Of a stretch of 35,747 nt of DNA, positions 1,943-27,661 are shown piece by piece. Both the position numbers and the translations under genes were made by a program. The DNA is from a virus, in IMG/VR virus record IMGVR_UViG_3300013883_000001. The stretch is one strand, 5' to 3'. Below the pieces are notes generated by a model that saw nothing but the letters and a program-made list of their open reading frames with translations, searched no databases and was not told the DNA's origin. Position 1 is the first letter of the stretch. Every line of letters starts with the position of its first letter.

Positions 1943-1972
1943 AATATTTCTACCAACATGGTAATTTCCCTC

Positions 1973-2718: not shown

Positions 2719-2782
2719 CCGGATGGCTCTACAGATGGGACAGCTCGACATGCCTTAACTCTACTGGAAGGAGGTGATAGGG

Positions 2783-3325: not shown

Positions 3326-3409
3326 GCGCCCCATCCGAAATTACCCTACCCCTATTGTATCACGCCTAACAGGCTGGCACAAGAGGGGAAATGAAAGGAG
3401 GCCCGCAGA

Positions 3410-3995: not shown

Positions 3996-4006
3996 GAGGA
4001 TGATGC

Positions 4007-4129: not shown

Positions 4130-4145
4130 CGAGGGAGGATGTCAC

Positions 4146-9252: not shown

Positions 9253-9500
9253 TCAGGATTATTCACGGCAAACACATAGGGGCGTTCGGTTTAATGCCGG
9301 CCGCCCCGGGCACCTGCCCGGAGTGCGCGGTGGATCACCCGCCTGAGTTGCCCCATAACCAGCAGAGCCTGTTCTACCAATACAAATTTTACAATGACCA
9401 CGGTCGGTGGCCGACCTGGGAAGATGCCATGTCCCACTGCAGTGAGGACATGAAGACCATCTGGCGGGAGGAACTGCGAAAGCGGGGTGTAGAGATATGA
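9249..9500 (+). CDS. hypothetical protein with CPEC motif
   Basis: ATGA coupling to sbcC. 83 aa; CPECAVDH...HC. Confidence 0.6.
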   Translation: MIRIIHGKHIGAFGLMPAAPGTCPECAVDHPPELPHNQQSLFYQYKFYNDHGRWPTWEDAMSHCSEDMKTIWREELRKRGVEI

Positions 9501-9889
9501 AAACTGCAATCGAGTGGTGCCCATATTGCGAAAACGAAGTCGAGGTTCATGCAGAGAGTCCTTCTCCTTGCCCGGTTTGCGGGAAGACATTGGTGCCATG
9601 TTCGACTTGCCAAGATAGCCTAAGCCGGCCTCATTTTGGCTGTAATTGGACTAATGAGAGGGGATGCTGGAGATTTAGAAGACCAGATTTGAATATTGAG
9701 TTATACAAATTCACGATCAACGCCATCGAAGCGAAAAGGAAGGCAAGCAAAGGTGAAGTTACGACACTTGAATTTGCTAGGATGGCACAATTGCGCCCCG
9801 ATATATGGTGCGATATTAGGGCGTTCCGCAAAGTAGCTACAACCAAAGAACTAAAAAATATAAAAAACGCTGCGGAGAAGTTGGTATGA
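9497..9889 (+). CDS. Cys-rich zinc-ribbon protein
   Basis: ATGA coupling. CPYC-x15-CPVC, then CSTC and further Cys. The composition switches from GC-rich to AT-rich within this ORF (about 9620..9700). Confidence 0.6.
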   Translation: MKTAIEWCPYCENEVEVHAESPSPCPVCGKTLVPCSTCQDSLSRPHFGCNWTNERGCWRFRRPDLNIELYKFTINAIEAKRKASKGEVTTLEFARMAQLRPDIWCDIRAFRKVATTKELKNIKNAAEKLV

Positions 9890-10026
9890 TTATGATTTTG
9901 CAGTTATTATCCGCTTTACTTGTCTTTTTATCATCTGTAGAAATGTTTTTTGGTAAATACGAACCAGCTATATTCGGTATTCTCTTGGCGATATGGATAA
10001 AACTTGTGCTAAACGATCGAACATGA
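9886..10026 (+). CDS. small membrane protein (46 aa, 2 hydrophobic spans)
   Basis: Hand-translated MIMILQLLSALLVFLSSVEMFFGKYEPAIFGILLAIWIKLVLNDRT. ATGA coupling to the upstream gene. Confidence 0.5.
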   Translation: MIMILQLLSALLVFLSSVEMFFGKYEPAIFGILLAIWIKLVLNDRT

Positions 10027-10027
10027 G

Positions 10028-10246
10028 ATGAGATCCCGGAAGTGGACAACGCTTGAGTGGTCTTGCCCCTACTGCAAACAGAGTATGTTTAGCGCCTACC
10101 CGGCGCGAGATCAGGAGAAAGTGAGGTGCATTCATTGTGGACGGTGGTTTAACAACCCATATCACGAGATTGCTGGTAGATCCCGAGCTGAACGAAGCAC
10201 TAACGGCACTCCAGGTGGCAAAGAACCACCTGGACCAGGCTGTTGA
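10028..10246 (+). CDS. zinc-ribbon mini-protein
   Basis: CPYC-x17-CIHC in the first 40 aa. The tail (RSRAERSTNGTPGGKEPPGPGC) overlaps the next ORF and looks non-coding. Confidence 0.5.
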   Translation: MRSRKWTTLEWSCPYCKQSMFSAYPARDQEKVRCIHCGRWFNNPYHEIAGRSRAERSTNGTPGGKEPPGPGC

Positions 10247-10463
10247 CCAGGACATGGTAGAAGCGGCTTGTTACGAGATTACAGCCGCGGAACTGCGGCT
10301 AAGGGCGATAATCAGGAGGGCCAAAGCGGAAAGGGGTGATATGGTTGATCAAGTGGATGCCAGCAGAAAAAGGCTATTTGAAGATCAAGGTGCAGTGCCC
10401 AGAGTGTGGCCTCATGGTGGCCGGCAAAATAGACATACGGGAAGCGCAGCCAGTTTGGTTTGA
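10137..10463 (+). CDS. hypothetical helical protein (possibly DUF2508-like)
   Basis: GTG 8 nt after GTGAGGTG. DPELNEALTALQVAKNHLDQA...EITAAELRLRAIIRRAK resembles the DUF2508 pattern from memory. The 3' tail overlaps the next ORF. Confidence 0.45.
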   Translation: MDGGLTTHITRLLVDPELNEALTALQVAKNHLDQAVDQDMVEAACYEITAAELRLRAIIRRAKAERGDMVDQVDASRKRLFEDQGAVPRVWPHGGRQNRHTGSAASLV

Positions 10464-10542
10464 CGGACTGGGCTGGCTAACTGCTTTGTTAGCTGTTGCT
10501 ATAGGAGTAGCAGTACTGATTGCCCAGCTGGGTAAATGGTAA
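10336..10542 (+). CDS. tail-anchored membrane protein with CPEC motif
   Basis: KIKVQCPECGLMVAG, then a C-terminal TM span LGWLTALLAVAIGVAVLIAQLG. Start uncertain (GTG 10336, TTG 10345 or ATG 10357). Confidence 0.5.
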   Translation: MIWLIKWMPAEKGYLKIKVQCPECGLMVAGKIDIREAQPVWFDGLGWLTALLAVAIGVAVLIAQLGKW

Positions 10543-11345
10543 GGGTGGTAGGATTGAAACCAATACTCAAATATCCTGGTGCGAAATGGAATTTAGCAAA
10601 ATGGATAATACAACATATGCCTCCACATAAGGTCTACTTAGAACCATTCTTTGGTAGCGGGGCGGTGTTTTTTAATAAGCCTCCTGTTGGGATTGAGACT
10701 ATTAATGATCTCGATGGGAACGTAGTTAATTTATTTAAAGTTATTCGTGACTATCCGGAACAGCTGTCTAATATGATTGAAATGACTCCCTGGGCAAGAG
10801 AAGAATACTATTCCAGTTACAAACCAGCCGACAATGGAATAGAAAAAGCACGAAGATTTTTAGTAAGGTGCTGGCAGGCATACGCAACCAGAACAGGTTG
10901 CAGAACTGGGTGGAGGCATAGTGCTACTGGCTTAGCCCCGAATATGCCCGAGCAATGGAATAAACTTCCGGCTAGAGTATTTAAAGTGGCTGATAGGTTA
11001 AAACATGCACAAATAGAATGCATGGAAGCCCTGAGTTTGATAAAGAAGTATAACTACGACAATGTTTTGATTTATGCTGATCCTCCCTACCTGCTAAATA
11101 CACGCAATCGTGGGATATATGAACACGAAATGACGGATGAACAACACTTGCAATTACTTGAGACATTAAAGAAACATAAAGGGCCAGCGATTGTATCCGG
11201 TTATGAATCGGAGTTATACAACGATGCCTTAAAAGGCTGGCAGGTAATGCGCAAAACAGCGACTACCGAGAAAGGACAGTCAAAAACTGAGGTTATATGG
11301 ATTAACCAAATCGTGTCAAATAATACTGGTTTATGGATGTTATGA
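10536..11345 (+). CDS. dam: DNA N6-adenine methyltransferase, D12/Dam class
   Basis: KYPGAKWNLAKWI, EPFFGSGAVFFNK (AdoMet motif), IYADPPY (catalytic DPPY). Start is ATG 10536 or TTG 10554. Confidence 0.85.
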   Translation: MVRVVGLKPILKYPGAKWNLAKWIIQHMPPHKVYLEPFFGSGAVFFNKPPVGIETINDLDGNVVNLFKVIRDYPEQLSNMIEMTPWAREEYYSSYKPADNGIEKARRFLVRCWQAYATRTGCRTGWRHSATGLAPNMPEQWNKLPARVFKVADRLKHAQIECMEALSLIKKYNYDNVLIYADPPYLLNTRNRGIYEHEMTDEQHLQLLETLKKHKGPAIVSGYESELYNDALKGWQVMRKTATTEKGQSKTEVIWINQIVSNNTGLWML

Positions 11346-11357
11346 GGAGGGATAATC

Positions 11358-11492
11358 GTGAAGCGTGACTGGCAAAAGGACTGGGAGTTATGTCAGAAAG
11401 CTACTAAAGGTAATTGGTTACTAGTGCAGGAGATTGAGAAGAGAGAGCTTTGGGAGAAAGGGGAGCGGGAGTATGCCCAATCGCATAATTAA
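11358..11492 (+). CDS. small hypothetical protein (44 aa)
   Basis: GTG 7 nt after GAGGAGGG. VKRDWQKDWELCQKATKGNWLLVQEIEKRELWEKGEREYAQSHN. Overlaps the next start by 20 nt. Confidence 0.4.
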   Translation: MKRDWQKDWELCQKATKGNWLLVQEIEKRELWEKGEREYAQSHN

Positions 11493-12393
11493 AGAAAGTA
11501 TATGCACAAGTGATAATTTAAACGAACTTACACCTGAGGAGGAGGTTTTTTTCTACCGTCTTTTAGTTAACTGCGATGACTTTGGACGGTTGGATGCCAG
11601 ACCTCAGATTCTATTAGCTAAGTGTTTTCCTTTAAAAATTCATTCTATCACAGTTGAAGATATAGAACAATGGTTACAGGCATTAGTCAAACATGACTTA
11701 GTAATACTCTATGAAGTTGAAGGCAAACAGTATCTGCAGATGGCAACTTGGGATAAACACCAGCAAAAGCGCGCAAAGAATAGCAAATACCCCGCTCTTC
11801 CAGCACATGATAGCGATGCAAGTAATCTGATATCATCTGATATCAAATGCAATCAACTGCAATCAAATGTCCCCGAGAATCGAGAATCGAGAATCGAGAA
11901 TCGAGAATACGAGAATACGAGAATCGAGAATCGAGAAAGTTCTGAGCAACCTGAGCAAAATGAATCTTGTGACGATGTCACGGAACCAGCTGAAAGCAAG
12001 AAAAAAGATTCTAAACCAAAAAGTCAGGGCAAGAAAAACCACAAGTTTAGCGAGGAAGGTAGGGAAATAACAAAATATCTCCAGGAAAAACTGAAGAATG
12101 CCGGAGTAGACCATTTCCCGCGAGACTGGCTCCTGAAAAACTATGCCACAGCAGACCGTTTGCTGAAAACTATACCCAAACATGAGCTGAAAGAGTGTAT
12201 TACCTGGGCTATGGACGACCAGTTTTGGAAAAGTACGATCAATGACCTTCTGGGTGTAGAAAAAGCCTATATGCAGTTCAAGCGGAAAGGGGTGAAGGCT
12301 AATGGAATGCGTTCCCAAAGCATACCAGGACAAGGTAGAAGAGAACTGTATTCGGAGGAAGACAGAGAGAACGCAGCTACTTGGGAGTGGTGA
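11473..12393 (+). CDS. phage replisome organiser / replication initiator-like protein
   Basis: ATG 11473 rather than the track start 11434. IIKESICTSDNLNELTPEEEVFFYRLLVNCDDFGRLDARPQILLAKCFP...ATWDKHQQKR is the N-terminal pattern of Firmicute prophage replication proteins. It precedes a DnaC-like loader. Confidence 0.65.
   Translation: MPNRIIKESICTSDNLNELTPEEEVFFYRLLVNCDDFGRLDARPQILLAKCFPLKIHSITVEDIEQWLQALVKHDLVILYEVEGKQYLQMATWDKHQQKRAKNSKYPALPAHDSDASNLISSDIKCNQLQSNVPENRESRIENREYENTRIENRESSEQPEQNESCDDVTEPAESKKKDSKPKSQGKKNHKFSEEGREITKYLQEKLKNAGVDHFPRDWLLKNYATADRLLKTIPKHELKECITWAMDDQFWKSTINDLLGVEKAYMQFKRKGVKANGMRSQSIPGQGRRELYSEEDRENAATWEW
11874..11937. repeat. tandem heptanucleotide array (CGAGAAT x 8.9, two units with an extra A)
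   Basis: Read directly: units at 11874, 11881, 11888, 11895, 11902, then A+unit at 11910, A+unit at 11918, then 11925, and a partial unit at 11932..11937. Encodes ENRESRIENREYENTRIENRES. Confidence 0.9.
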
Positions 12394-12406
12394 AAGCCTG
12401 CTGGAT

Positions 12407-13291
12407 ATGTTTACTCCTGTTATTCCTGAGCTAGCGAGGATGGAAGCAACAGAAGAAGAGGTGCGCCTAAATCTCCAACTTGGCGGCTGGGATTTATACG
12501 ATGTGTATCAGCACCGAACAGCATGTGCTAATTGCACTTTCACGGATCACGACAGGGAATGCAGTTTCCCCATACAGAAATACAGGTTTATGCGAATTGA
12601 CGTTGGCTTGGTGGTAGAAACAAGGCTGGTAAACAGTTGCAAGGCAAAAGAGGATCCTTACGTTATCGCAAAACGCGAGAAACTGTTGGAGGGTCTAAAA
12701 TTGCCCAAGGAATTTCAGAAAAAAGACTTAGAAAACTACAACCCTAAAAACGACTCCCAAGACCAAGCAGTTGGGAAAAGCAGACAGTACGTGCAAAACT
12801 TTGTAAATCATGCTTTACAGGGCGAAGGCTTGGTTTTTTCAGGCCCTACAGGTACAGGGAAAACACACTTGGCTGTAGGGGTAGCGAAAGAAATTATCCG
12901 AAAATACTTACGTTGGATGGTTTTTATTGATGTAGGAGTATGGGCGCATGATTTTGTTTACGGCAGTAGGAGTTTTGAAGAAAAGAAAAAATCCATAGAC
13001 CGCATGAAAAGAGCAGAGGTCTTAATATTAGACGATTTAGGAGCTGAGCTTGGCCTGTCAAACAAAACAACGGCAATAGGGGCTTTGAATTTGGTTATTA
13101 TGCACCGGTATAACCAAGCAAAGCCAACTATCTGTACTACGAACCTTCCTCCTGAAAAACTAAAGGACTACTTAGGCAAAAGGGCCTGGAGCCGTTTGCA
13201 AGGGAAAAACCTAAATATCCCGCTTATTGGGCAGGATTATCGTATTACGGATAACCCCTGGGCCGATCTGGGCGAACTGGTGGAAATATAA
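12407..13291 (+). CDS. DnaC/IstB-like AAA+ helicase loader
   Basis: Walker A FSGPTGTGKTHLA, Walker B VLILDDLGAE, sensor TICTTNL. ATG 12407 chosen because the track start 12302 lies inside the upstream gene. Confidence 0.8.
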   Translation: MFTPVIPELARMEATEEEVRLNLQLGGWDLYDVYQHRTACANCTFTDHDRECSFPIQKYRFMRIDVGLVVETRLVNSCKAKEDPYVIAKREKLLEGLKLPKEFQKKDLENYNPKNDSQDQAVGKSRQYVQNFVNHALQGEGLVFSGPTGTGKTHLAVGVAKEIIRKYLRWMVFIDVGVWAHDFVYGSRSFEEKKKSIDRMKRAEVLILDDLGAELGLSNKTTAIGALNLVIMHRYNQAKPTICTTNLPPEKLKDYLGKRAWSRLQGKNLNIPLIGQDYRITDNPWADLGELVEI

Positions 13292-13304
13292 GAGGTGACT
13301 GTCG

Positions 13305-14066
13305 GTGCGAGACAAACTTCCTAGCATGTGTATTGAACTAGTTCCCGGCGCAAACACGTATGTAGTGCCGGAAGAGGAACCAGACCCCCAGCCACCGGAA
13401 TGGTTTGTGGACACAAATACCTACTGGAAACGCAGAAACCCAGAAACGGGGAAAGAGGAAATATATAAAATCACGGACATAAAAGGAAATATCCTATGGC
13501 AGAAAGGGGAGGGTGAAGATATGCCAATAAAACCTAGAGATAACAGAGAAGAAAAAATGCCGGAGATAAAAAGGCTCAGAGCCGAAGGCAAGACTCTCAA
13601 AGAAATATCAAGGGAGTTGGACGTACCGTATGCCACGTTGTATATGTGGTTACGGATTGAAGAAGAAGGCAAGACAGGAAACTCGAAAGTACACCCAAAC
13701 AAAGAGGAACTAATTCCGAAAATCCTCAAAATGCGGGAAGAAGGGAAGACAGGAGCTGAGATAGCTAAGGAGCTGAACATACCGGAAGGAACTATCTGGT
13801 CATGGCTGTATGTAGAGAAAAACAAGAAGCAGCAGGCCCAGGAGTCCGAACCGGCTGAGGCTGCCAACCAGGAGCCGGAACAGGAGGAAGAGGAAAAAGA
13901 AGATTATTCTGAGCCTGCTGAGGAAAGTATAGCAGAGGAAATCCCTCCTGTACAGCTAGCGCAGGAACATATACTGGCTAGGGCTAAGGTGCATGTGCAA
14001 AAGGTCATAGAGGACCCGGTTGCCCTGGCCCTCTTGAAAGAGCTTTTACGGCAGGAGGTAATATAA
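13305..14066 (+). CDS. DNA-binding protein with two tandem HTH repeats and an acidic tail
   Basis: GTG 7 nt after AGAGGTGA. Repeats IKRLRAEGKTLKEISRELDVPYATLYMWL and ILKMREEGKTGAEIAKELNIPEGTIWSWL, then an E/Q/P-rich segment. Confidence 0.6.
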   Translation: MRDKLPSMCIELVPGANTYVVPEEEPDPQPPEWFVDTNTYWKRRNPETGKEEIYKITDIKGNILWQKGEGEDMPIKPRDNREEKMPEIKRLRAEGKTLKEISRELDVPYATLYMWLRIEEEGKTGNSKVHPNKEELIPKILKMREEGKTGAEIAKELNIPEGTIWSWLYVEKNKKQQAQESEPAEAANQEPEQEEEEKEDYSEPAEESIAEEIPPVQLAQEHILARAKVHVQKVIEDPVALALLKELLRQEVI

Positions 14067-14105
14067 AAAACACCGCATACTACCTATTCGGAAGAAGGTA
14101 AAGAA

Positions 14106-14834
14106 ATGAAACACATTGTTTCCTATTCAGGCGGAAAAGATAGCACTTATATGCTGATTAAAATGCTAGAAAAGAACATGCCTGTAGACGAAATCATTTT
14201 TATAGATACAGGAATGGAGTTTCAGCAATTGTATGATTATATAGATCGTATTGAAAATTACATAGGACGCAGAATTACACGCCTGAAGCCTAAGAAAACC
14301 TGGGACGACCTGTTCTTTCATAAAAAGACCAGGGGAAAACACGTAGGGCAGATAAACGCTTTCCCTATGGTTAGAACTTGTGATATGTCAAGACAACTGA
14401 AAATTGAAACTGCCAAACGCTATTATCGTTCCATAGCAGACAAGTTTATCGTTTATCTCGGCATAGCGTATAACGAACCTAAGCGGTTCGCAAGGCTTAA
14501 AGACAATGAAAGAGCACCTCTGTACGAATGGAAAATAACAGAGGATTTTGTACTTAAAGAACTCAAGCGTATGGGGTTGCATAATCCCCTCTACGATACT
14601 TTTGACCGCTTGGGTTGTTACACCTACCCCAATATGACTTTAAAGGAACTAAGGCTTATGCGAAAACGATACCCTAAAGAATATTCTAAGTTGTTGTGGT
14701 ATGGCAAGCAGGCGGAAAAGCACGCAATCGAACGTAGGTTTGCAGAGTTCAAACCTGATTGGACGCTATCGGAATTGGAAAAACGCTTCCAGTTGGAAGA
14801 ACAACAGGGAACTTTATTTAGCGAGGTGATATAA
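14106..14834 (+). CDS. PAPS-reductase / PP-loop ATPase family protein
   Basis: N-terminal VSYSGGKDSTYML is the SGGKDS PP-loop. The ~240-aa size is typical of phage PAPS-reductase-like proteins. Confidence 0.75.
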   Translation: MKHIVSYSGGKDSTYMLIKMLEKNMPVDEIIFIDTGMEFQQLYDYIDRIENYIGRRITRLKPKKTWDDLFFHKKTRGKHVGQINAFPMVRTCDMSRQLKIETAKRYYRSIADKFIVYLGIAYNEPKRFARLKDNERAPLYEWKITEDFVLKELKRMGLHNPLYDTFDRLGCYTYPNMTLKELRLMRKRYPKEYSKLLWYGKQAEKHAIERRFAEFKPDWTLSELEKRFQLEEQQGTLFSEVI

Positions 14835-15167
14835 ATGGCACGCAAAAAGCGAGGCAGAGGTGGAAATCGTTATGACGATTCCCTTTACTGGCACTGCATA
14901 CATGCATATGCAGACGATAACTGCTTTAAGACCCCACTGGAGGAACGGACGTGGGTAAGGAAGAAGAAGGGGCGTAAAGTTAAGGTTTATAGAGGGAAAT
15001 TGGCAAATGGCACTATTTGTAAAAAAGAAATCACACTCTGGAAAGTACTGGAATGTGAAAGGTTTAAGAGGGGGAGGAAACATGTTAACGCTGATTGGAA
15101 TCTGTTGTATAGAAGTCCTCTATGGGGGGTTATTTTGAACAAGAAGTTAAGTAAATTGGCAAAGTGA
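14835..15167 (+). CDS. hypothetical basic protein
   Basis: ATG immediately after the upstream TAA. 110 aa, K/R-rich; no motif recognised. Confidence 0.5.
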   Translation: MARKKRGRGGNRYDDSLYWHCIHAYADDNCFKTPLEERTWVRKKKGRKVKVYRGKLANGTICKKEITLWKVLECERFKRGRKHVNADWNLLYRSPLWGVILNKKLSKLAK

Positions 15168-15180
15168 GGAGGGATCCAGG

Positions 15181-15564
15181 ATGGAAATTTCTTTCACAGT
15201 CCCCGGCAGACCCGTCCCGGCTGCCAGGATGACTAGGCGGGGGAAATTCGTAAAGAAAAATGCTCAGCGTTACCTGGCATATAAAGACATGGTGCGCTGG
15301 ACGGCATGGGACGTAATGAGACAAGCCGGGATATCTCCCTTGGAGGGACCTGTTGGTGTAGAAGTACATGCTTACATTGCCGGCGGGAGAATGGGGGATT
15401 TAGACAATATTGAAAAAGCAATTTTCGATGGTATGAATGGCATTGTTTGGCATGACGACAGGCAGATAGAGGAGGTACATGCCTACAGGCACAAGGGTAA
15501 GCCCCAGAGAACGGAAGTCCGAGTATGGCTGTTGAAGGGGGAAAGGGAAAATGAAGTGTCCTAG
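15181..15564 (+). CDS. rusA: RusA-family Holliday junction resolvase
   Basis: FTVPGRPVPAARMT..., GDLDNIEKAIFDGMNGIVWHDDRQI (catalytic Asp cluster typical of RusA). Confidence 0.85.
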   Translation: MEISFTVPGRPVPAARMTRRGKFVKKNAQRYLAYKDMVRWTAWDVMRQAGISPLEGPVGVEVHAYIAGGRMGDLDNIEKAIFDGMNGIVWHDDRQIEEVHAYRHKGKPQRTEVRVWLLKGERENEVS

Positions 15565-15671
15565 ATGTGGTGGAGAGTTGTTTCAGGTTTATTTTCGGGG
15601 ATGAAGTTGAACGCTGGCGTTGCATGAAGTGTGAGATTGTTTTCTGGCTGCAAGTAGGAGGAGGGCAGTAG
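15551..15671 (+). pseudogene. 4-Cys zinc-ribbon mini-gene interrupted by a +1 frame break at a G4 run
   Basis: Frame a: MKCPRCGGELFQVYFRG-TGA (15602..15604). Frame a+1 from 15600: DEVERWRCMKCEIVFWLQVGGGQ-TAG. Removing one G of GGGG (15597..15600) gives a 39-aa CPRC-x16-CMKC ribbon. Confidence 0.6.
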
Positions 15672-15673
15672 AA

Positions 15674-15931
15674 GTGGATATATTTCCTAAACCGCCTCAA
15701 GAACTAGAAGGATATCGCTTTATGGGTTATGCCATTTACGCTGATTATTTTTATGAGATTACCATGTGGGAAGACAAAAACGGGAATCGAGTCCAAGTTT
15801 ATAGGGGAAAACACGGGGAACATATTGCCAGAACGGCAGAGGAACAGTACGCAATCTACAGATTGTATGGAATACCTGAGCCTTATCCGGAATCTGATTT
15901 AAGGCATGAGATTCAAGGAAGTTTGTTTTAA
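15674..15931 (+). CDS. hypothetical protein
   Basis: GTG 9 nt after GGAGGAGGG. 85 aa, Tyr-rich; no motif recognised. Confidence 0.55.
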   Translation: MDIFPKPPQELEGYRFMGYAIYADYFYEITMWEDKNGNRVQVYRGKHGEHIARTAEEQYAIYRLYGIPEPYPESDLRHEIQGSLF

Positions 15932-15958
15932 GGCAAAACCGAGAGGGGAGGAGAGCAG

Positions 15959-16465
15959 TTGAGCAGAAAAAAAGCTAACTGGTATCAGCAGACAGAATCC
16001 TTGCTTTATAATTATAAGAGTTTTAAAATTCGCATCATGGCTCTTATGCAGCAGGTTGATACTGTGAAAGAGCAGCTTATACCTAGAATTGGGCCTGTAT
16101 ACGAACTCAGAGAAGGCACGAATTACAGTATATCCTCCCCAGTTGAAAAAGCAGTTATTGAACGTATTGAAGGAGATACTATTCAGAAGCTTGAACGCAA
16201 AATAAAGAATCTGGAGACTCTGAAGGAGATAGTTGAGATATCAGTTGATATTATGTTGAGTGATTTTGAACGGAAAATAGTGGATATAGCATATAACAAA
16301 GAAGAACCCTGGCAAAATGCATGTAAGATACTTAACATTGAAAAAAGTGCCTATTATGAACATCGAAAAAGAATAGTGCGAAAATTAGCCTGGTGCTTTG
16401 GATATTTGCCAGATGATGAGTTTGATTACAAAGAATTTATAGACGCCGGAATAAACCCGGAATAA
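15959..16465 (+). CDS. late-gene transcriptional activator, RinA/ArpU/sigma-region-4-like
   Basis: TTG after GGGGAGGAG. TESLLYNYKSFKIRIMAL near the N-terminus and a C-terminal HTH-like ERKIVDIAYNKEEPWQNACKILNIEKSAYYEHRKRIVRKLA. Position immediately upstream of the packaging genes. Confidence 0.6.
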   Translation: MSRKKANWYQQTESLLYNYKSFKIRIMALMQQVDTVKEQLIPRIGPVYELREGTNYSISSPVEKAVIERIEGDTIQKLERKIKNLETLKEIVEISVDIMLSDFERKIVDIAYNKEEPWQNACKILNIEKSAYYEHRKRIVRKLAWCFGYLPDDEFDYKEFIDAGINPE

Positions 16466-16498
16466 AACCGGAATAAAACCGGAATAACTCAGGAATAA
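16448..16498. repeat. five GGAATAA boxes spaced exactly 11 bp apart
   Basis: Boxes start at 16448, 16459, 16470, 16481 and 16492. The first two overlap the last codons and stop of the activator gene. Confidence 0.9.
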
Positions 16499-16539
16499 TT
16501 TTGTTGTTCTATGGTTTATACTGGTAGAAAGAAAATCTG

Positions 16540-16566
16540 GCCTCGCAGGAGCGGGGCTTTTATTTT
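16540..16566 (+). terminator. Rho-independent terminator
   Basis: GCCTCGC-AGGA-GCGGGGC (7-bp stem with one G.U) followed by TTTTATTTT. Confidence 0.7.
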
Positions 16567-16618
16567 GGCAGGAAAAATCTCCCTTTTGCCGAAGTGAGTA
16601 GGTGAAAGGAGGAAAATT

Positions 16619-16711
16619 ATGAAAGAAATAACAATACTAATATCATTGGAAGCACTAAATTTGATAAGTGATGAAATAGGAAAAGATTTACGAAAAGATT
16701 TACAAGATTAG
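16619..16711 (+). CDS. 30-codon leader ORF with strong SD
   Basis: GAAAGGAGGA, 7 nt, then ATG. MKEITILISLEALNLISDEIGKDLRKDLQD. Contains a 12-bp tandem repeat GAAAAGATTTAC x2 (16680..16703). Protein expression is unproven. Confidence 0.35.
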   Translation: MKEITILISLEALNLISDEIGKDLRKDLQD

Positions 16712-16731
16712 AGCCTCCGGGCTCTTTTTTA
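16710..16731 (+). terminator. Rho-independent terminator overlapping the leader-ORF stop
   Basis: AGAGCC-TCCG-GGCTCT followed by TTTTTATTT. The TAG stop (16709..16711) lies in the 5' arm. Confidence 0.65.
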
Positions 16732-16746
16732 TTTGGAGTGATTACC

Positions 16747-17097
16747 ATGCCTAGACGTCTACCAACGCCATGCAACTTCCCAGGCTGCCCAGCTTTATCC
16801 CATGAACGCTTCTGCGAGAAACACAAGAAGCAGGAAAGAAAGCGGCAGGATAGCAGGAGAGGAACCAGCGCTCAACGTGGTTATGACTATCGCTGGCAGA
16901 AGATACGCAAGCTGGTGCTAATGGAAGAGCCGCTCTGTCGTGAATGCTTGAAGCATGGACGGGTTAAAGCAGCCCAGCATGTTGACCATATCGACGGCAA
17001 CGTTAGGAACATTAGCAGGGAGAACCTGCAGCCGCTGTGTGCTTCATGTCATAGCAGAAAGACTGTAAAAGAGGATGGAGGGTTTGGGAATGGCTAG
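16747..17097 (+). CDS. HNH endonuclease (packaging-associated type)
   Basis: CPALSHERFCEKH..., HVDHIDGNVRNISRENLQPLCASCHSRKT. Located just upstream of terS/terL, as in HNH-dependent cos phages. Confidence 0.85.
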   Translation: MPRRLPTPCNFPGCPALSHERFCEKHKKQERKRQDSRRGTSAQRGYDYRWQKIRKLVLMEEPLCRECLKHGRVKAAQHVDHIDGNVRNISRENLQPLCASCHSRKTVKEDGGFGNG

Positions 17098-17272
17098 CGT
17101 GGTGGCTGTTGTTAATAAGTTTAATGCCTGGATAGCAATGAGAAAGAGCACGGCACGAATACTCCAGACGATGGACTTGTTAAACGAATTGAGTGATAGG
17201 GACCTTAGAGATATAGCGGAATACGCGAATGAACTGGTCAAGCTGCGTAAGAGTAGGGGTAGGGCGGGGTAA
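17090..17272 (+). CDS. hypothetical protein (60 aa)
   Basis: ATG 17090 follows GAGGATGGAGGG and overlaps the HNH stop by 8 nt. Helical sequence; no motif recognised. Confidence 0.5.
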   Translation: MASVVAVVNKFNAWIAMRKSTARILQTMDLLNELSDRDLRDIAEYANELVKLRKSRGRAG

Positions 17273-17354
17273 ATCTCTGTAGTCCTGGCGCGCTAGACCG
17301 CGCGGGCAGTCTCGAAAAAGATTTCGCAAGTTTTCAGAAAGGAGGTTGTCTAAA

Positions 17355-17837
17355 ATGGGGAAAAGAGGACCAGCACCAAAGCCTACTGTTCTTCGCATTT
17401 TGGAGGGCAATCCAAGTAAGCGGCCTTTGCCTCAGAACGAGCCTAAGCCTGCGCCAGTTATCGAAACACCTAACCCTCCTTCCTGGATGAATACAGAAGG
17501 GAAGAAAATGTGGAAGAGGCGTTTTCCTGAACTTAAGAGGATAGGGCTTATTACATCTGTTGATATAGAATCCTTTGCTATTCTCTGCCAATCCTGGGGT
17601 GAGTATGTGGAAGGGATTAAAGATATAAAGAAGAATGGCAAGTATTACATTTACACAAACAAGGCTGGAGCGTCGAACGAAGTTGAACGTCCCGTTGTTA
17701 GAGCCACACATAGAGCCTTTGAGCGTTATAAGACTATGTGTGCCGAGTTTGGGATAACGCCAGCAAGTAGAACGAGGATAGAGATTAAACCTATAGAAAC
17801 AGAAGAAGATCCAATGGAGATGTTGTTAAGCAAGTAG
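17355..17837 (+). CDS. terS: terminase small subunit, P27 family
   Basis: ATG 17355 after AAAGGAGG. MGKRGPAPKPTVLRILEGNPSKRP and ...FGITPASRTRI are P27-family hallmarks. Confidence 0.85.
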   Translation: MGKRGPAPKPTVLRILEGNPSKRPLPQNEPKPAPVIETPNPPSWMNTEGKKMWKRRFPELKRIGLITSVDIESFAILCQSWGEYVEGIKDIKKNGKYYIYTNKAGASNEVERPVVRATHRAFERYKTMCAEFGITPASRTRIEIKPIETEEDPMEMLLSK

Positions 17838-17846
17838 GTGGTAATA

Positions 17847-19476
17847 ATGTTTTTTTGATAAAGAGAAGGCTGACAGAGCCTTAACTTTCATAAAGCAATT
17901 AAAACACACTAAGGGACTCTGGAAAGGAGTTCCTTTTACTGTACTGCCCTGGCAGGAACAGGCTGTAAAAGATATATTCGGAACTGTCCGTGAAAATGGC
18001 TATAGGCAGTACAACACGGCATATTTGGAAGTGCCAAAAAAAATGGGCAAGAGTGAATTCGGCGCAGCAATTGCGTTGTATTGCCTTTGTGCTGATGGTG
18101 AATGGGCAGCAGAGGTGTATGGCTGCGCAGCAGATAGGCAAAATGCCAGTATTATTTATGATGTAGCCGTGGACATGGTAGATCAAAACCCTGTTTTGAA
18201 GAAAAAAATAAAGCTGGTACTATCTCAGAAGCGTATGGTTTACATGCCTACCCGGTCCTATTATCAGGTGCTAAGCGCAGAAGCGTACAGTAAACATGGA
18301 TACAATGTGCACGCTGTTATATTTGATGAACTTCACGCACAGCCCGACAGGAAACTTTTTGACGTAATGACTGAGGGAAGTGGTGATGCAAGGGCGCAAC
18401 CGCTATATTTTCTCATAACAACAGCCGGGGATGATGCTAACCGCACATCAATTGGCTGGGAAGTACACCAGACGGCGGTTGATGTTCTTACAGGGGTTAA
18501 ATATGACCCTACTTTTTATGCCATGATATTTGGGCTAGATAGGGAGAATAAGCGTATCTGGAAAGGACGAGAGTTTGAGACAATAGACGAGAACCTGGAA
18601 GATGAAGAAATATGGCGCAAAGTTTGGACAGATAAAAAGGTATGGGAAAAGGTTAATCCTAGTATAGGTCATACCGTTTCTTGGGAGAGGGTAAATGATC
18701 AATTCACCCGTGCTAATGGCAACCTAGCAAAGGAAAAGAACTTCCGCTGGCTACGTCTAAATAGTTGGGAAAAAACGAATACAACAAAATGGCTAGGACT
18801 GGACTTCTGGGATCGTTGCAAAGGAAAAATAAACATTGAACAGTTGGAGGGCAGGCCGTGTTATGGAGGGCTCGACCTCTCAAGCAAGATAGACATGACA
18901 TCTTTTGTTTTGCTGTTCCCTCCAGACGACATAAACAAGAAATGGTTGGTTTTGCCCTGGTTCTGGGTTCCGGAAGACCGTATTCAAGAACGAGTAGAGA
19001 TAGATAAAGTCCCTTACGACATTTGGGAGAAGCAGGGATACTTACAGACAACGCCCGGTAATGTTATAGACTATGCGTTCATTGAGCAGCAAATTCTTGA
19101 TTTAGCTGACAAATATCGCATACAGGAAATTGGCTATGACCCCTGGAATGCAATGCAGACAGCAATCAGGTTGGAGGACAACGGTCTCACTTGTGTAGAG
19201 GTAAGGCAAGGTTTTAAAACTATGTCTCCTGCTATGAAAGAGATAGAACAGTTGGTAAGAGGCAAGAAGATGCTTCATAACGGGCATCCAATTTTGCGCT
19301 GGAATGTCAGCAACGTAGAAATAAAGCAGGACGAAAACGAGAACATCAGGCCAGTTAAAGGTAAAGGCACAGAACGCATTGACGGCATAATTGCCCTGAT
19401 TAATGCTATGGCTAGAGCTATGCTCCATGAGGATCATACTAGCGTATACGAAGAAAGGGGGCTGGTGACCCTTTGA
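17847..19476 (+). CDS. terL: terminase large subunit (Terminase_1 type); needs a +1 shift after codon 3
   Basis: ATG 17847 (SD AGGTGG) reads ATG TTT TTT TGA. The conserved N-terminus FDKEKADRALTFIKQLKHTKGLWKGVPFTVLPWQ..., Walker A PKKMGKSE and Walker B VIFDELH are in the +1 frame, open from 17848 to 19476. Confidence 0.85.
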
Positions 19477-21437
19477 GAGTAAAAATCCCTTTCACAAATA
19501 GATACTTAGAACTACGAACGTCCCTAGCAAATCCCGACAAATGGTTAATAGATTGGTTCTCAGGAGGTGGCAAATCAGCCTCCGGCGTAACCGTCAACGA
19601 AAACACGGCCCTCAATGCAACAGCGGTATTCTCCGCCGTTGACATTTTAAGCCGTACTTTGGCATCGCTTCCATTACCGGTTTATAAGCGGCTGCAGGGA
19701 GGCGGCAAGGAACGGGCAACTAATCACCCGCTTTATAGTATTTTGCACAATCTGCCCAACCGGGAGATGACCAGCTTCGAGCTTCGGCAAGCCCTGATGG
19801 GGCATTTGGCGTTATGGGGCAATGCCTTCGCCGAGATTGAGCGCGACAATGCAGGCCGGGTAATCGGCCTCTGGCCCCTGCGTCCCGACCGCATGACTGT
19901 TAAGCGTGATGAACGAGGGCTTTTGTATATATACCGCATTGGCACGACTGGGCAAGAAGTGGCCCTGCGGCAGAGAAACGTAATGCATATTCGCGGGTTA
20001 TCCAGCGATGGCGTCATCGGTTATTCTCCGATTCGGTTGGCGCGGGAAGCTATCGGGTTGACCCTGGCTACGGAGGAATTCGGGGCGCGGTTCTTCGGTA
20101 ATGGCAGCCGTCCAGGAGGAGTACTCCAACATCCAGGCAAACTGAGCGAGGAAGCCTCCAAGCGGCTTAAAAAATCGTGGGAAGAAATGCACCAGGGCCT
20201 CACTCAGGCGCATAGGGTGGCCATTTTGGAAGAGGGGATGACCTGGCAGCAAGTTGGCATCCCTCCTGAAGATGCCCAGTTTCTGGAGACGAGAAAATTC
20301 CAGGTCACTGAAATCGCCCGGATTTTTCATGTGCCTCCGCATATGCTGGCGGACTTAGAACGCAGTACATTTTCAAATATAGAACATCAGGGTATAGAGT
20401 TCGTGGTTCATACAATGCGGCCCTGGCTAGTGTGTTGGGAACAAGCCATGTACCGCGACCTGTTTTTGCCGACTGAGCGACAGACCTACTTCACTGAATT
20501 CCTTGTTGACGGCCTTCTTCGTGGCGATACCGAAAGCCGCTACCGTGCCTATGCGACCGGTAGGCAGTGGGGTTGGCTTTCGGCAAATGATGTCCGCGAG
20601 CTTGAAAACATGAACCCCGTTGAGGGAGGAGATACCTACTTGATTCCGCTGAACATGATTCCGGCGGACACAGCAGGAAGTGCTCCGCAACCGCCAGAAG
20701 GAACAGGGCAGAGGTCAGAAAAGCGAAGCATGCCAGCAAGAGCTAAAAGACCAGAACAGTATTATCGTGTGTTCAAGTCTGCCACTGAAAGGTTGGTGAA
20801 ATGGGAAGCCAGCGAGATCAGGAGCCTTGTCAGGAAACACCTCGCACGGAGCACGAGAGACATAAACACGTTTAACATTGAGCTAGATGCTTGGTACTCG
20901 AAAGATACGACCAAAGAGCGGATCAGGAAATATATGCTTCCGGTCATAGCCTCATATGCTTCTGTTATCGCTGCTGATGCCCAGGAGGAGGTAGGCAACG
21001 AACTGGCTGCCGGTTGGGCAGACGTACAGGCTAATGGATACACGGAAATATATGTCCGAGACCACATAGATAACTCAAAGGGACAAATACAGGCTTTGGC
21101 GAGAAAGCAAGAGCCGGAAGTTGCGATAAATGAGAGACTTGACGAGTGGGGAGAGAAACGGCCAGACAAAATCGCAAAATGGGAAACTGTCAATGCGGCT
21201 GGTGTATTCGCAAGGTTGGCGTTCGCTGCTTTGGGGATTAAATATTTGCGCTGGCGGAATGGAACAAACCCTTGCCCGTACTGCAAAAGCATGGACGGTA
21301 AGGTAGTGGGCATTGACAGCGCATTTACGCTTGGGAATGTGGAAGCTGAAGGAGAGCCGCCGATGAGGCTTTTTAGGAACCCGAAGAACCCGCCGCTGCA
21401 TGAGGGTTGTTCTTGCTTTATCGAACCGTCACGATGA
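19473..21437 (+). CDS. portal protein (HK97 family) fused to a Mu F / SPP1 gp7-like head-morphogenesis domain
   Basis: The N-terminal ~400 aa carry portal patterns (NENTALNATAVFSAVDILSRTLASLPLPVY, FLETRKFQVTEIARIFHVPPHML, NDVRELENMNPVEGGD). The C-terminal ~220 aa end in WRNGTNPCPYCKSMDGKVV...PPLHEGCSCFIEP, the MuF signature. Confidence 0.8.
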   Translation: MRVKIPFTNRYLELRTSLANPDKWLIDWFSGGGKSASGVTVNENTALNATAVFSAVDILSRTLASLPLPVYKRLQGGGKERATNHPLYSILHNLPNREMTSFELRQALMGHLALWGNAFAEIERDNAGRVIGLWPLRPDRMTVKRDERGLLYIYRIGTTGQEVALRQRNVMHIRGLSSDGVIGYSPIRLAREAIGLTLATEEFGARFFGNGSRPGGVLQHPGKLSEEASKRLKKSWEEMHQGLTQAHRVAILEEGMTWQQVGIPPEDAQFLETRKFQVTEIARIFHVPPHMLADLERSTFSNIEHQGIEFVVHTMRPWLVCWEQAMYRDLFLPTERQTYFTEFLVDGLLRGDTESRYRAYATGRQWGWLSANDVRELENMNPVEGGDTYLIPLNMIPADTAGSAPQPPEGTGQRSEKRSMPARAKRPEQYYRVFKSATERLVKWEASEIRSLVRKHLARSTRDINTFNIELDAWYSKDTTKERIRKYMLPVIASYASVIAADAQEEVGNELAAGWADVQANGYTEIYVRDHIDNSKGQIQALARKQEPEVAINERLDEWGEKRPDKIAKWETVNAAGVFARLAFAALGIKYLRWRNGTNPCPYCKSMDGKVVGIDSAFTLGNVEAEGEPPMRLFRNPKNPPLHEGCSCFIEPSR

Positions 21438-26108: not shown

Positions 26109-26837
26109 TTGGCATTTAAGCACGGTAGCAAAGCAAGAGTATACGCGAACGGCTATGACCTGAGCGCATACTTGAAGAACTTTTCTGTTTCCGGCGAGGC
26201 AGAGACGCACGACGTAACAACGTTTACGGCAACAGCAAAGAAGTACATTCCGGGTCTGAAGGATGCGACCTTAAGCGCGGACGGCGTCTATGACGGCGAC
26301 ACGGGCGGTATAGATGAGATTATGCAAGCTGCGCTGGGGCAAGACAAAAGCATATGGACATACTTTCCCCAAGGCGAAGTCGCGGTTGGAGACGCCGGAT
26401 ACGGTTTCGATGCCATAGAAAATAGCTACGAAATAGAGACACCGGTGGACGATGTGGCTGTTGTTTCCGCAGAAGCGCAAAGCAAAGTGGGTCAAGAGAG
26501 AGTCTTAACGTACCATCCTCTAAGCCAGGAGACAGCGAACGGGAATAGTACAAGCATTGACAACGGAAGTAGTTCTACTGCTGGCGGTATTGGGTATCTG
26601 CAGGTAGTTGATCTATCTGGCACAAGTCCAACCCTGGACGTTACAATTCAACATTCCGACGACGATGGCGTAACTGATCCCTGGTCTGCCGTTTGCACTT
26701 TTACTCAAGTAACAGCAGCGCATAGTAGCGAAAGGAAAGAAATAACGGGCACGGTTAAGCGGTACACCCGGGCGGTCTGGACGCTCGGCGGTACAAGTCC
26801 AAGCGCAACTTTCAGCGTTGCGTTTGGCAGGAAATAG
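26109..26837 (+). CDS. major tail (tube) protein, long paralogue with C-terminal extension
   Basis: TTG after GGGGGAGGTAAGGA. 242 aa. The N-terminal 130 aa are paralogous to the next gene (HGSKA, AETHDVTTF, GLKDATLSADGVYD, YEIETPVDDVA..SAE.Q). Confidence 0.65.
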   Translation: MAFKHGSKARVYANGYDLSAYLKNFSVSGEAETHDVTTFTATAKKYIPGLKDATLSADGVYDGDTGGIDEIMQAALGQDKSIWTYFPQGEVAVGDAGYGFDAIENSYEIETPVDDVAVVSAEAQSKVGQERVLTYHPLSQETANGNSTSIDNGSSSTAGGIGYLQVVDLSGTSPTLDVTIQHSDDDGVTDPWSAVCTFTQVTAAHSSERKEITGTVKRYTRAVWTLGGTSPSATFSVAFGRK

Positions 26838-26863: not shown

Positions 26864-27274
26864 ATGGCTGTACATGGTAGCAAAGCAGTAATTAAGTTTG
26901 GGACTTCGGGAGCACCTGGGACACCGACTGACATTTCTCAGTATGTCAAGAGCATCTCTTTTCCAGAAGAAGCGGAGACTCACGATACTACAACTCTAGG
27001 TGCTACTTCAAAGTCTTACATTGCTGGGCTGAAGGACGCGACAATCAGTATTGACGGCGTCTTCGACCCGACGGTTGATGCACACCTGAACGGCATCTTA
27101 GGGTTAGACGGAGTGGCGTTTGAATATGGACCGGCAGGCAGTACCGCTGGTTCGATAAAATATACCGGTAACTGCATTTGCACCAGTTACGAAGTTGAAA
27201 CGCCTGTGGACGACGTGGCGACGTTTTCGGCGGAATTCCAAGTTTCTGGCAATGTAACCCGCGGGACATACTAG
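26864..27274 (+). CDS. tail tube protein, short paralogue
   Basis: ATG after TAAGGAGGA. 136 aa. Shares AETHDTTTLGATSKSYIAGLKDATISIDGVFD and YEVETPVDDVATFSAEFQ with 26109..26837. Confidence 0.65.
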   Translation: MAVHGSKAVIKFGTSGAPGTPTDISQYVKSISFPEEAETHDTTTLGATSKSYIAGLKDATISIDGVFDPTVDAHLNGILGLDGVAFEYGPAGSTAGSIKYTGNCICTSYEVETPVDDVATFSAEFQVSGNVTRGTY

Positions 27275-27286: not shown

Positions 27287-27661
27287 ATGGGTAAAATGCT
27301 ATCTTTTGACGAAATCCTTGCCGCTCAGGATTTGGACGTGCTTGAGGTGGATGTTCCCGAGTGGTCCGGCAAGGTAAAAGTGCGGGAGTTAACCAAGGCT
27401 GCCCGGGATAGGATAACGAAAGAAGCGACAGTAAACGGTCAAATAGACAACGACAAACTGCAGGTGCTTATGCTCGCAGAATGTCTTGAAGAACCCAAGA
27501 TAACTGTTGAGCAAGCTCAGCAGTTGTGGGAAAAATCTGCTGCTGCGATTGACAAAATCTTATTTGCGATTCTAGACGTCAACGGCTTAAGCGAGCTTGC
27601 GCAAAAAGAAATTCAGAAATCCTTTCGTTCTGGGGTTCAAGGCACCGAAGGAGTATCCTGA
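27287..27661 (+). CDS. tail assembly chaperone (gpG-like)
   Basis: Position between the tube and tape-measure genes, 124 aa, acidic. Overlapping downstream ORF in another frame. Confidence 0.75.
   Translation: MGKMLSFDEILAAQDLDVLEVDVPEWSGKVKVRELTKAARDRITKEATVNGQIDNDKLQVLMLAECLEEPKITVEQAQQLWEKSAAAIDKILFAILDVNGLSELAQKEIQKSFRSGVQGTEGVS

What the first reader, a model, noticed from the sequence alone, without database searches (positions are those of the whole stretch)
17836..17861. terL is only translatable through a +1 shift at ATG-TTT-TTT-TGA (T7 run, prfB-like geometry)
The conserved Terminase_1 N-terminus (FDKEKADRALTFIKQLKHTKGLWKGVPFTVLPWQ...) is open from 17848. That frame has no ATG, GTG or TTG until TTG 18025, 56 codons later and just before the Walker A. 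The only SD-preceded start (AGGTGG 17836..17841, ATG 17847) is in the other frame and reads ATG TTT TTT TGA TAA. Skipping one T of the 7-T run (17850..17856) joins M-F-F to DKEKADRA and gives a 542-aa TerL. P-site tRNA-Phe on UUU can re-pair on the overlapping UUU while a UGA sits in the A site. That is the same logic as the RF2 (prfB) CUU-UGA +1 frameshift. If real, packaging would be tuned by termination efficiency. Alternatives are a homopolymer sequencing error or a slipped-strand on/off state of an essential gene.
Basis: partly seen in the sequence, partly recalled or inferred. Interest (0 to 1): 0.8.

Follow-up and report, generated by a model that had tools for sequence, protein, structure and literature searches.

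The report
Frameshifted phage terminase gene start
The DNA-packaging motor gene of this otherwise intact phage carries a real extra T at its third or fourth codon, so the enzyme can only be made if the ribosome (or RNA polymerase) slips on a run of seven Ts; this looks like a tolerated mutation, not an evolved regulatory switch.

Summary
terS ends at TAG 17835-37. AGGTGG (17836-41) precedes ATG 17847, which reads ATG TTT TTT TGA TAA. The TerL frame is open only from 17848 and has no ATG, GTG or TTG before TTG 18025.

The T7 run is not a sequencing error. It is identical in seven assemblies from six or seven samples and sits in two different genome backgrounds. The six-T allele is absent from a 15-billion-protein collection.

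It is not conserved either. About 110 of 120 homologues are single ORFs of about 542 aa that start M-Y/F-F-D, exactly colinear with the repaired MFFDKEK. So this is a lineage-specific one-T insertion in a near-clonal set of sequences.

The genome is a complete, circularly closed, HK97-like siphovirus of 35.7 kb. I found no other broken gene and no integrase, so it should need TerL.

The best explanation is low-level +1 (or -2) slippage of tRNA-Phe on U7 with UGA in the A site. The same phage clade uses a conserved +1 shift at UUU_C in its tail chaperone gene, which supports this. The prfB-like stimulators are absent, and seven Ts is below the run length documented for transcriptional slippage. 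A defective element is not excluded.

The parts
17355..17837 (+). terS (small terminase, Terminase_4). Its stop TAG 17835-37 overlaps the terL Shine-Dalgarno sequence. It is in the same frame as the ATG mini-ORF.
   Evidence: called as 160 aa in all contigs
17836..17841 (+). AGGTGG Shine-Dalgarno sequence. It lies 5 nt before ATG 17847 and 11 nt before the second UUU codon (17853-55).
   Evidence: read directly from the sequence
17847..17861 (+). Three-codon mini-ORF ATG TTT TTT followed by TGA TAA. This is the only SD-preceded start.
17850..17856 (+). T7 run, the only place where the TerL frame can be entered. Proposed events: +1 slip of P-site tRNA-Phe from UUU 17853-55 to 17854-56, giving MFFD; or a -2 slip to 17851-53, giving MFFFD. 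The run is identical in all 7 assemblies.
17857..19476 (+). TerL body in the +1 frame, from GAT (Asp4) to the stop. Landmarks: the invariant PWQ (Q36 = 17953-55), which I infer from general TerL knowledge to be the adenine-binding Q motif; Walker A PKKMGKS at 18034-54; Leu60 = TTG 18025; Met66 = ATG 18043, the start chosen by the gene callers (477 aa).
17866..17882 (+). Small hairpin AAGGCU-GACAG-AGCCUU, starting 10 nt 3' of the UGA. It is probably a by-product of the conserved K-A-D-R-A-L codons. No role has been shown.
   Evidence: 120-nt fold, z = -3.5; comparison with relatives by eye
27620..27627 (+). Related evidence, not part of terL. Invariant CC_UUU_CGU in the tail assembly chaperone gene, where the coding signal switches from frame 0 to frame +1 (G to GT fusion). 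It uses the same tRNA-Phe UUU to UUY +1 slip.

Best explanation
The DNA really carries seven Ts. This is a lineage-specific one-T insertion into an ancestral ATG-TTT-TTT-GAT (or TAT-TTT) start of an HK97-type terL. The insertion is fixed in this phage population.

Ribosomes initiate at the strong SD and ATG 17847 and make fMet-Phe-Phe. Most terminate at UGA 17856-58. While that slowly decoded stop sits in the A site, a minority of P-site tRNA-Phe slips +1 from UUU 17853-55 to UUU 17854-56. A -2 slip to 17851-53 is also possible. GAU is then read and full-length TerL (MFFDKEK..., 542 aa) is made.

A small contribution from RNA-polymerase slippage, giving U6 or U9 transcripts, would yield the same protein. 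TerL is an enzyme needed in few copies, so a low yield could suffice.

Shown here: the sequence, its reproducibility, the colinearity with the family, and the absence of any other route into the frame. Inferred: that the slip happens and that the yield supports packaging.
For: 1. The same ATGTTTTTTTGATAA occurs in 7 assemblies: the window (NCBI LDZT01), JGI 3300013886, JGI 3300010236, and Logan SRR25293831, SRR25293641, SRR28875795 and SRR28876212. They are 99.93-100% identical to the window over 1.6-5.2 kb.
2. In L002 the terS-terL-portal module is joined to unrelated upstream DNA. The junction is near window 17299, and the HNH there is only about 50% identical at the amino-acid level. So the T7 allele sits in two genome backgrounds.
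3. The repaired 542-aa protein (six-T allele) is not in the 15-billion-protein collection. P0001, the truncated gene call, is the only hit above 79% identity.
4. The window has a 79-nt terminal direct repeat, which implies a closed circle of 35,668 bp. All other packaging, head, tail, lysis and replication genes checked are intact, and no integrase was found. Other A7, A8 and T7 runs, including two inside terL, are in frame.
5. The 59 residues lost by starting at TTG 18025 include the invariant PWQ and the first 26 or so positions of the Pfam ATPase domain. They also align to HK97 TerL 6Z6D.
6. UUU_UGA is a listed +1 shift site, and UUU_U is used by some prfB genes (PMC3500957; PMC5009743).
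7. The same phage clade has a conserved +1 shift at the invariant CC_UUU_CGU in the tail chaperone gene. Variable sites fall at codon position 3 of frame 0 upstream (14 of 20) and at position 3 of frame +1 downstream (16 of 21). So tRNA-Phe +1 slippage is apparently already used productively in this host.
Against: - There is no conservation. Every relative read at the DNA level has a plain in-frame ATG or GTG start, so selection for the shift is not demonstrated.
- All T7 copies are near-identical. They may come from one clonal population sampled repeatedly, since independence of the samples could not be checked.
- Known stimulators are missing. The SD is 11 nt, not 3 nt, from the shift codon. 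UGA is followed by U, not C.
- In E. coli, UUU_U is much less efficient than CUU_U (PMC5009743).
- I had no reads, RNA or peptide data.
Confidence: 0.55

Rival explanations
1. The extra T is a genuine inactivating mutation. The element no longer makes TerL and persists without packaging, for example as an episome or prophage in a clonal host lineage that dominates related bioreactor or enrichment samples.
For: - The allele is confined to sequences 99.9-100% identical, and the next relatives are only 79% identical in protein.
- Repressor-like HTH genes and a replication initiator with a DnaC-like loader are present, which is compatible with episomal maintenance.
- The run accession numbers fall into a few batches, so the sources may be related.
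- No stimulatory elements are present.
Against: - All other genes checked are intact and no integrase was found.
- The assembly is circular, and a second independent linear assembly has a different permutation.
- The allele occurs in two genome backgrounds.
- No six-T sister allele has been seen anywhere.
- The site is an ideal slip site that yields exactly the family N-terminus.
Confidence: 0.28
2. Rescue occurs at the RNA level. RNA polymerase slips on the T7 run and makes some U6 (or U9) transcripts that are translated normally.
For: Homopolymeric A or T runs cause transcriptional slippage in bacteria and can restore frameshifted genes (PMC1088944; PMC5009743). The product would be identical (MFFD or MFFFD).
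Against: Productive slippage is documented for runs of 9, and suggested for 8 (PMC1088944; PMC5009743). Seven is below that. No stimulatory RNA hairpin lies immediately upstream.
Confidence: 0.12
3. Homopolymer sequencing or assembly error: the true sequence has six Ts and terL is an ordinary ORF.
For: Homopolymers are the classic site of indel errors, and the repaired ORF is perfect.
Against: - Seven assemblies from different samples, made by different pipelines (NCBI, JGI, Logan), agree base for base.
- A8 and A7 runs within the same gene are in frame.
- The six-T protein is not on record.
Confidence: 0.03
4. Evolved prfB-like sensor: TerL output is tuned by RF2 activity at UGA.
For: The site has the shift codon plus UGA geometry. 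The non-shift product is a useless tripeptide. UUU_U is used in some prfB genes (PMC5009743).
Against: - The arrangement is not conserved in any relative.
- The SD spacing is 11 nt rather than 3 nt.
- UGA is followed by U, not C (PMC5009743).
- Any dependence on RF2 would be a by-product.
Confidence: 0.08
5. A truncated TerL that starts at TTG 18025 or ATG 18043, or a non-canonical start such as AUA 17890, is the functional protein.
For: Gene callers chose ATG 18043 (477 aa) in all contigs.
Against: - These starts fall 3 residues before, or inside, the Walker A motif PKKMGKS.
- They remove the invariant PWQ and about 26 positions of the ATPase domain.
- No SD precedes them.
- No homologue starts there. 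P0041 and P0108 are missed GTG starts.
Confidence: 0.03

Closest known systems
Bacterial prfB (RF2) autoregulatory +1 frameshift, CUU_UGA_C
   Same: A P-site tRNA re-pairs +1 on a U-rich codon while UGA occupies the A site. ORF1 is very short and useless on its own. The functional protein lies wholly in the +1 frame. UUU_U replaces CUU_U in a minority of species (PMC5009743).
   Different: - There is no SD-like stimulator 3 nt upstream. The only SD is the initiation SD, 11 nt away.
- U rather than C follows UGA.
- The gene product is not the factor that reads the stop, so there is no feedback loop.
- The arrangement is not conserved among orthologues.
'Compensatory' or 'corrective' frameshifting at a homopolymer indel (e.g. 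the herpes simplex thymidine kinase G-run mutants; class described in PMC5009743)
   Same: A one-base indel in a homopolymer of an otherwise intact gene, with low-level slippage on that same run restoring enough product. The non-shift product is useless.
   Different: Here the gene is an essential phage packaging enzyme, and the indel lies at codon 3-4 immediately after the start, with a stop codon in the A site. No selective benefit of the indel is known.
UUU-pyrimidine +1 shift sites (tRNA-Phe), e.g. the ICEMlSymR7A msi172-msi171 FseA +1 frameshift at UUU (PMC5009743). From my own knowledge: E. coli argI and other UUU-Y sites (Fu & Parker 1994; Schwartz & Curran 1997).
   Same: The same tRNA and the same re-pairing (UUU to UUY). 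The tail-chaperone site in this very genome (CC_UUU_CGU) belongs to this type.
   Different: The FseA site has a conserved upstream Trp-Gly nascent-peptide context. The terL site has only fMet-Phe-Phe behind it.
Recoding in phage terminase genes: proposed translational bypassing in Streptomyces phage Hau3 terminase (PMC5009743; PMC10732093)
   Same: An essential terminase gene split between frames in a viable phage.
   Different: The Hau3 case is proposed bypassing (hopping) at a UUA codon with a nascent-peptide signal, not a one-base slip at a homopolymer.
HK97 large terminase (PDB 6Z6D) and the HK97-type HNH-TerS-TerL-portal-protease-capsid module
   Same: The repaired protein aligns to 6Z6D from residue 8 to 522 (E = 8e-55). 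The gene order is the same.
   Different: HK97 terL is a plain ORF.

Membership tests
prfB-type programmed +1 frameshift | Shift codon XUU followed by U, with an in-frame UGA in the A site | tested here: met
   UUU 17853-55 followed by UGA 17856-58. UUU_U is a natural minority variant (PMC5009743).
prfB-type programmed +1 frameshift | SD-like stimulator positioned about 3 nt 5' of the shift codon | tested here: not met
   The only SD (AGGUGG 17836-41) is 11 nt 5' of UUU 17853. The 3-nt requirement comes from my knowledge of Weiss 1987 and Larsen 1994. Conservation of the SD is stated in PMC5009743.
prfB-type programmed +1 frameshift | C immediately 3' of UGA (weak terminator) | tested here: not met
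   UGA is followed by U (UGAUAA). 'Nearly always C' per PMC5009743.
prfB-type programmed +1 frameshift | Arrangement conserved among orthologues (positive selection for the shift) | tested here: not met
   116 of 120 listed homologues carry the conserved N-terminus in one ORF, with HTKG at residue 19-21 in 111. All relatives read at the DNA level have in-frame ATG or GTG starts. GenBank phages match residues 1-542 in one piece.
Compensated (corrective) homopolymer indel | One-base indel, relative to orthologues, inside a homopolymer that is itself a slip site | tested here: met
   T7 here, against ATG TAY TTY GAY or GTG/ATG TTC TTC in relatives.
Compensated (corrective) homopolymer indel | Full-length product actually made at a low level | not testable with these tools
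   This needs proteomics or a reporter assay. There is only indirect support: an intact circular genome, the allele in two backgrounds, and no six-T allele.
Productive transcriptional slippage site | Run of at least 8-9 A or T in the coding strand | tested here: not met
   The run is 7 T. Documented productive lengths are 9, and 8 is suggested (PMC1088944; PMC5009743).
HK97-type large terminase (Pfam TerL_ATPase + TerL_nuclease) | Both domains above the Pfam gathering score, and homology to a solved TerL | tested here: met
   PF03354 scores 68 bits (cut-off 23.7) and PF20441 scores 178 bits (cut-off 24). 6Z6D matches at E = 8e-55.
Phase-variable (slipped-strand) contingency locus | Alternative run lengths coexisting in populations | tested here: inconclusive
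   Only T7 is seen in 7 consensus assemblies, and the six-T protein is absent from the collection. Minority alleles within reads could not be examined.

The most novel reading that the evidence does not exclude
The out-of-frame start is maintained because it is useful. A strong SD and AUG load many ribosomes, but only the few percent that slip at UUU_UGA make TerL. The packaging ATPase-nuclease is thus kept scarce, and its level rises when host RF2-dependent termination is slow. This would couple DNA packaging to the translational state of the infected cell. Together with the conserved +1 UUU_C shift in the tail chaperone gene, the phage would rely on tRNA-Phe +1 slippage at two steps of virion assembly.
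Probability: 0.1. Interest if true: 0.75.

Novelty: new member of a known kind. Interest (0 to 1): 0.45.

Why it matters
If TerL is indeed made by slippage, three things follow.
- It would be a natural case of an essential phage packaging gene expressed only through a +1 'shifty stop' three codons after the start.
- It would show how easily homopolymer indels can be tolerated in hosts where tRNA-Phe +1 slippage is already used.
- It would caution against calling such phage genomes defective or their terL 'truncated'. All public gene calls for this phage start at Met66.

Practically, terL is the standard marker for phage classification and completeness scoring. Frameshifted starts like this one produce wrong protein entries. 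P0001 (477 aa) is the only version in the databases.

Tried and rejected
- Megablast of 17300-19500 against GenBank phages found no match.
- DNA pattern scans allowing any T-run length found nothing in metagenome contigs or genome contigs. A second scan of metagenome contigs with a plain 33-mer also found nothing. Those collections evidently do not hold these contigs, so they say nothing about six-T alleles.
- The viral-contig scan returned only the known 3300010236 contig.
- A literature search for the accession numbers (LDZT01, the SRR runs, the Ga identifiers) found nothing, so sample metadata and independence are unknown.
- Apparently truncated homologues (P0041 and P0055 at 515 and 520 aa; P0108 at 491 aa) were checked as possible further frameshift cases. 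P0041 and P0108, read at the DNA level, have in-frame GTG starts missed by the gene caller. P0055 shares P0041's N-terminus and was not read at the DNA level.
- Homologues that start MFF (P0064, P0111) use TTC TTC, so no six-T precursor was found.
- Rfam found no family anywhere in the window.
- The genome contigs protein scan gave only distant MAG hits (Kiritimatiellia at 72%, others at about 40%), so the host was not identified.
- Exact look-ups of the HNH protein and the PAPS-reductase protein were 'not on record'.
- The downstream hairpin 17866-82 was considered as a stimulator. I set it aside because it is formed by the conserved K-A-D-R-A-L codons and is only partly present in relatives.
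- terS stop-codon read-through or a terS-terL fusion was rejected. terS and the mini-ORF share a frame that ends at TGA/TAA, and the TerL frame is closed by TAA 17845-47.

Full report
**1. The observation**

- terS (Pfam Terminase_4) ends with TAG at 17835-37.
- AGGTGG lies at 17836-41 and ATG at 17847-49.
- Seven Ts follow at 17850-56, then GA, so the ATG frame reads ATG TTT TTT TGA TAA.
- The next frame is closed by TAA 17845-47 and open from 17848 (TGT TTT TTT GAT AAA GAG ...). It runs to the stop at 19476.
- That frame has no ATG, GTG or TTG before TTG 18025.

The TerL frame can therefore be entered only between 17848 and 17858, which is on the T run. Omitting one T gives MFFDKEKADRALTF..., 542 aa, with TerL_ATPase at residues 34-198 and TerL_nuclease at 261-528. 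TTG 18025 is Leu60 of this protein. ATG 18043 is Met66 and lies inside the Walker A motif PKKMGKS.

**2. The upstream 59 codons are real TerL**

A search of 5.8 billion proteins returned thousands of homologues. Of the best 120, 94 have the HTKG motif at residue 20, exactly as in the repaired protein, and 111 have it at residue 19-21. The commonest N-terminus is MYFDQxKADR, and two homologues begin MFF.

The only solved relative, HK97 large terminase 6Z6D, aligns from query residue 8. GenBank phages of Clostridia, at about 55% identity, match residues 1-542 in a single frame. The repaired reading is thus exactly colinear with the family, and the window carries one extra T.

**3. It is not a sequencing error**

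The gene callers' truncated product (P0001, 477 aa) and the TerS protein were traced to contigs from six further samples: JGI 3300013886, JGI 3300010236, and Logan SRR25293831, SRR25293641, SRR28875795 and SRR28876212. All carry AGGTGGTAATAATGTTTTTTTGATAAAG.

These contigs are 99.93-100% identical to the window over 1.6-5.2 kb. The only SNPs are at 17301, 19678, 19945 and 20061. The exact 542-aa protein that a six-T allele would encode is not among about 15 billion catalogued proteins.

Other long homopolymers in the window do not break genes. They include an A8 run (18036-43) and an A7 run (18202-08) inside terL itself.

**4. It is not conserved**

Every relative whose DNA I could read has an in-frame ATG or GTG immediately before Y/F-F-D. 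This covers L008-L015, L018, L029, L076, L088, L090 and L092.

Three 'short' homologues looked like possible further cases. The two I read at the DNA level, P0041 and P0108, have GTG starts that the gene caller missed. P0055 shares P0041's N-terminus. The MFF homologues use TTC TTC, not a T run.

The next closest protein is only 79% identical. So the T7 state is known only from a near-clonal set of sequences.

**5. What kind of element carries it**

The window has a 79-nt terminal direct repeat, which implies a closed circle of 35,668 bp. The JGI 3300013886 contig (35,650 nt) is the same genome in another permutation.

All genes are on one strand. The annotated genes are:
- Amidase_3-SLH endolysin and holin
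- HTH regulators
- SbcCD-like nuclease
- Dam-type methylase
- replication initiator and DnaC-like loader
- PAPS-reductase-like protein
- RusA and HNH
- TerS and TerL
- portal, S78 protease and HK97-type capsid
- adaptors and tail proteins
- tail chaperone and tape measure

No integrase was detected and no other gene looks broken.

In L002 (SRR25293831) the terS-terL-portal segment is 99.93% identical to the window. Upstream of about 17299 the DNA is unrelated, and it encodes a 156-aa HNH only about 50% identical to the window's HNH. The T7 allele therefore sits in at least two genome backgrounds.

These facts favour a phage that is still propagating, and such a phage needs TerL. They do not prove it. 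I could not establish how independent the samples are. An episomal or prophage state in a clonal host remains possible.

**6. Mechanism**

With fMet-Phe-Phe-tRNA-Phe on UUU 17853-55 and UGA in the A site, tRNA-Phe can re-pair perfectly at +1 (17854-56) or at -2 (17851-53). The next codon, GAU or UUU-GAU, continues TerL.

UUU_UGA is a catalogued +1 site (PMC3500957), and UUU_U replaces CUU_U in a minority of prfB genes (PMC5009743). However, the features that make prfB efficient and regulatory are absent.
- The SD is at initiation spacing, 5 nt from AUG, and so 11 nt from the shift codon.
- The base after UGA is U, not the conserved C.
- UUU_U was much less efficient than CUU_U in E. coli.

A long SD spacing would, if anything, favour backward slippage, and a -2 slip also reaches the TerL frame. 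That point is inference. I also infer that termination on a tripeptidyl-tRNA is slow, as in minigenes, which would prolong the pause.

Transcriptional slippage could give the same protein. It is documented as productive on runs of nine and suggested for eight (PMC1088944; PMC5009743). Seven is below that.

**7. An internal precedent found in passing**

The tail assembly chaperone gene (27287-27661, phrog_344) is followed by its 'T' extension in the +1 frame, not the usual -1 frame. I compared eight sequences, the window and L094-L100, which are 73-82% identical.
- The octamer CC_UUU_CGU is invariant.
- Upstream of it, 14 of 20 variable sites fall at codon position 3 of frame 0.
- Downstream of it, 16 of 21 variable sites fall at position 3 of frame +1.
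- The position and identity of the frame-0 stop vary.
- The +1 part hits a tail-protein family, phrog_337.

This is the signature of a conserved programmed +1 shift of tRNA-Phe from UUU to UUC. In this phage-host system, the same slip proposed for terL therefore appears to be in productive use already. That makes tolerance of the terL insertion more plausible.

**8. Verdict**

The extra T is real and fixed in the sampled population. It is lineage-specific, and it leaves slippage on U7 as the only route to a full TerL.

The best-supported reading is a compensated ('corrective') frameshift at a shifty stop (PMC5009743), at about 0.55. The main rival is a recently inactivated element, at about 0.28. 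An evolved prfB-like sensor is unlikely, at about 0.1. Sequencing error and a functional truncated TerL are each about 0.03.

This is a new instance of a known kind of event, in an unusual and essential gene. I score it as of moderate interest, and the question can be settled by read pile-ups, proteomics or a reporter assay.

Noticed in passing
window 27597-27661 (site 27620-27627): The tail assembly chaperone G-to-GT extension lies in the +1 frame, not the usual -1 frame. In 8 related sequences the octamer CC_UUU_CGU is invariant. Third-position variation switches there from frame 0 (14 of 20 sites upstream) to frame +1 (16 of 21 sites downstream). The frame-0 stop varies in place and identity. 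This points to a conserved +1 tRNA-Phe (UUU to UUC) programmed frameshift.
   Followed up: yes
window 17290-17315: The independent JGI contig Ga0181296_100095 (35,650 nt) is linear with ends at window 17294 and 17313. It lacks 18 nt (AGACCGCGCGGGCAGTCT) in the G+C-rich spacer between the HNH/ORF65 genes and terS. Three contigs from other samples (L003, L005, L080) all begin at 17309. This could be the cos site of an HK97-like phage, which would imply terminase cutting, or a mosaic junction that breaks assemblies.
   Followed up: partly
L002 1-1432 versus window about 16700-17299: The terS-terL-portal module (99.93% identical, including the T7 run) is joined in SRR25293831 to unrelated upstream DNA with a different 156-aa HNH gene. 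L002 and L004 both end at window 20225, which suggests a second mosaic junction inside the portal gene.
   Followed up: partly
window 1-79 and 35669-35747: An exact 79-nt terminal direct repeat implies a circularly closed assembly of 35,668 bp.
   Followed up: yes
window 1-10000 versus 10001-20000: There is a marked G+C step: 53-59% in the lysis, regulation and SbcCD-like region against 43-46% in the replication and packaging region. This is consistent with a mosaic origin.
   Followed up: no
window 26109-26837 and 26864-27274: Two adjacent ORFs (242 and 136 aa) both match major-tail-protein families (phrog_9522 and phrog_10528, reciprocally). This looks like a duplicated or split major tail gene.
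   Followed up: no
window 429-1232: The endolysin is an Amidase_3 fused to an SLH (S-layer homology) domain. The closest GenBank TerL relatives are phages of Clostridia (about 55%). Together these hint at a host among the Bacillota or another S-layer-bearing group. The host is otherwise unidentified.
   Followed up: partly
window 15181-15564: The exact RusA protein is also recorded on a second contig in the 50-200 kb size class that the tool did not display. This could be an integrated or related copy that would reveal the host.
   Followed up: no
window 16738-17097: The 119-aa HNH endonuclease ORF (Pfam HNH) is not among the genes called on the JGI contig. All public gene calls for terL start at Met66, giving 477 aa. 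Database entries for this phage's packaging genes are therefore incomplete.
   Followed up: no
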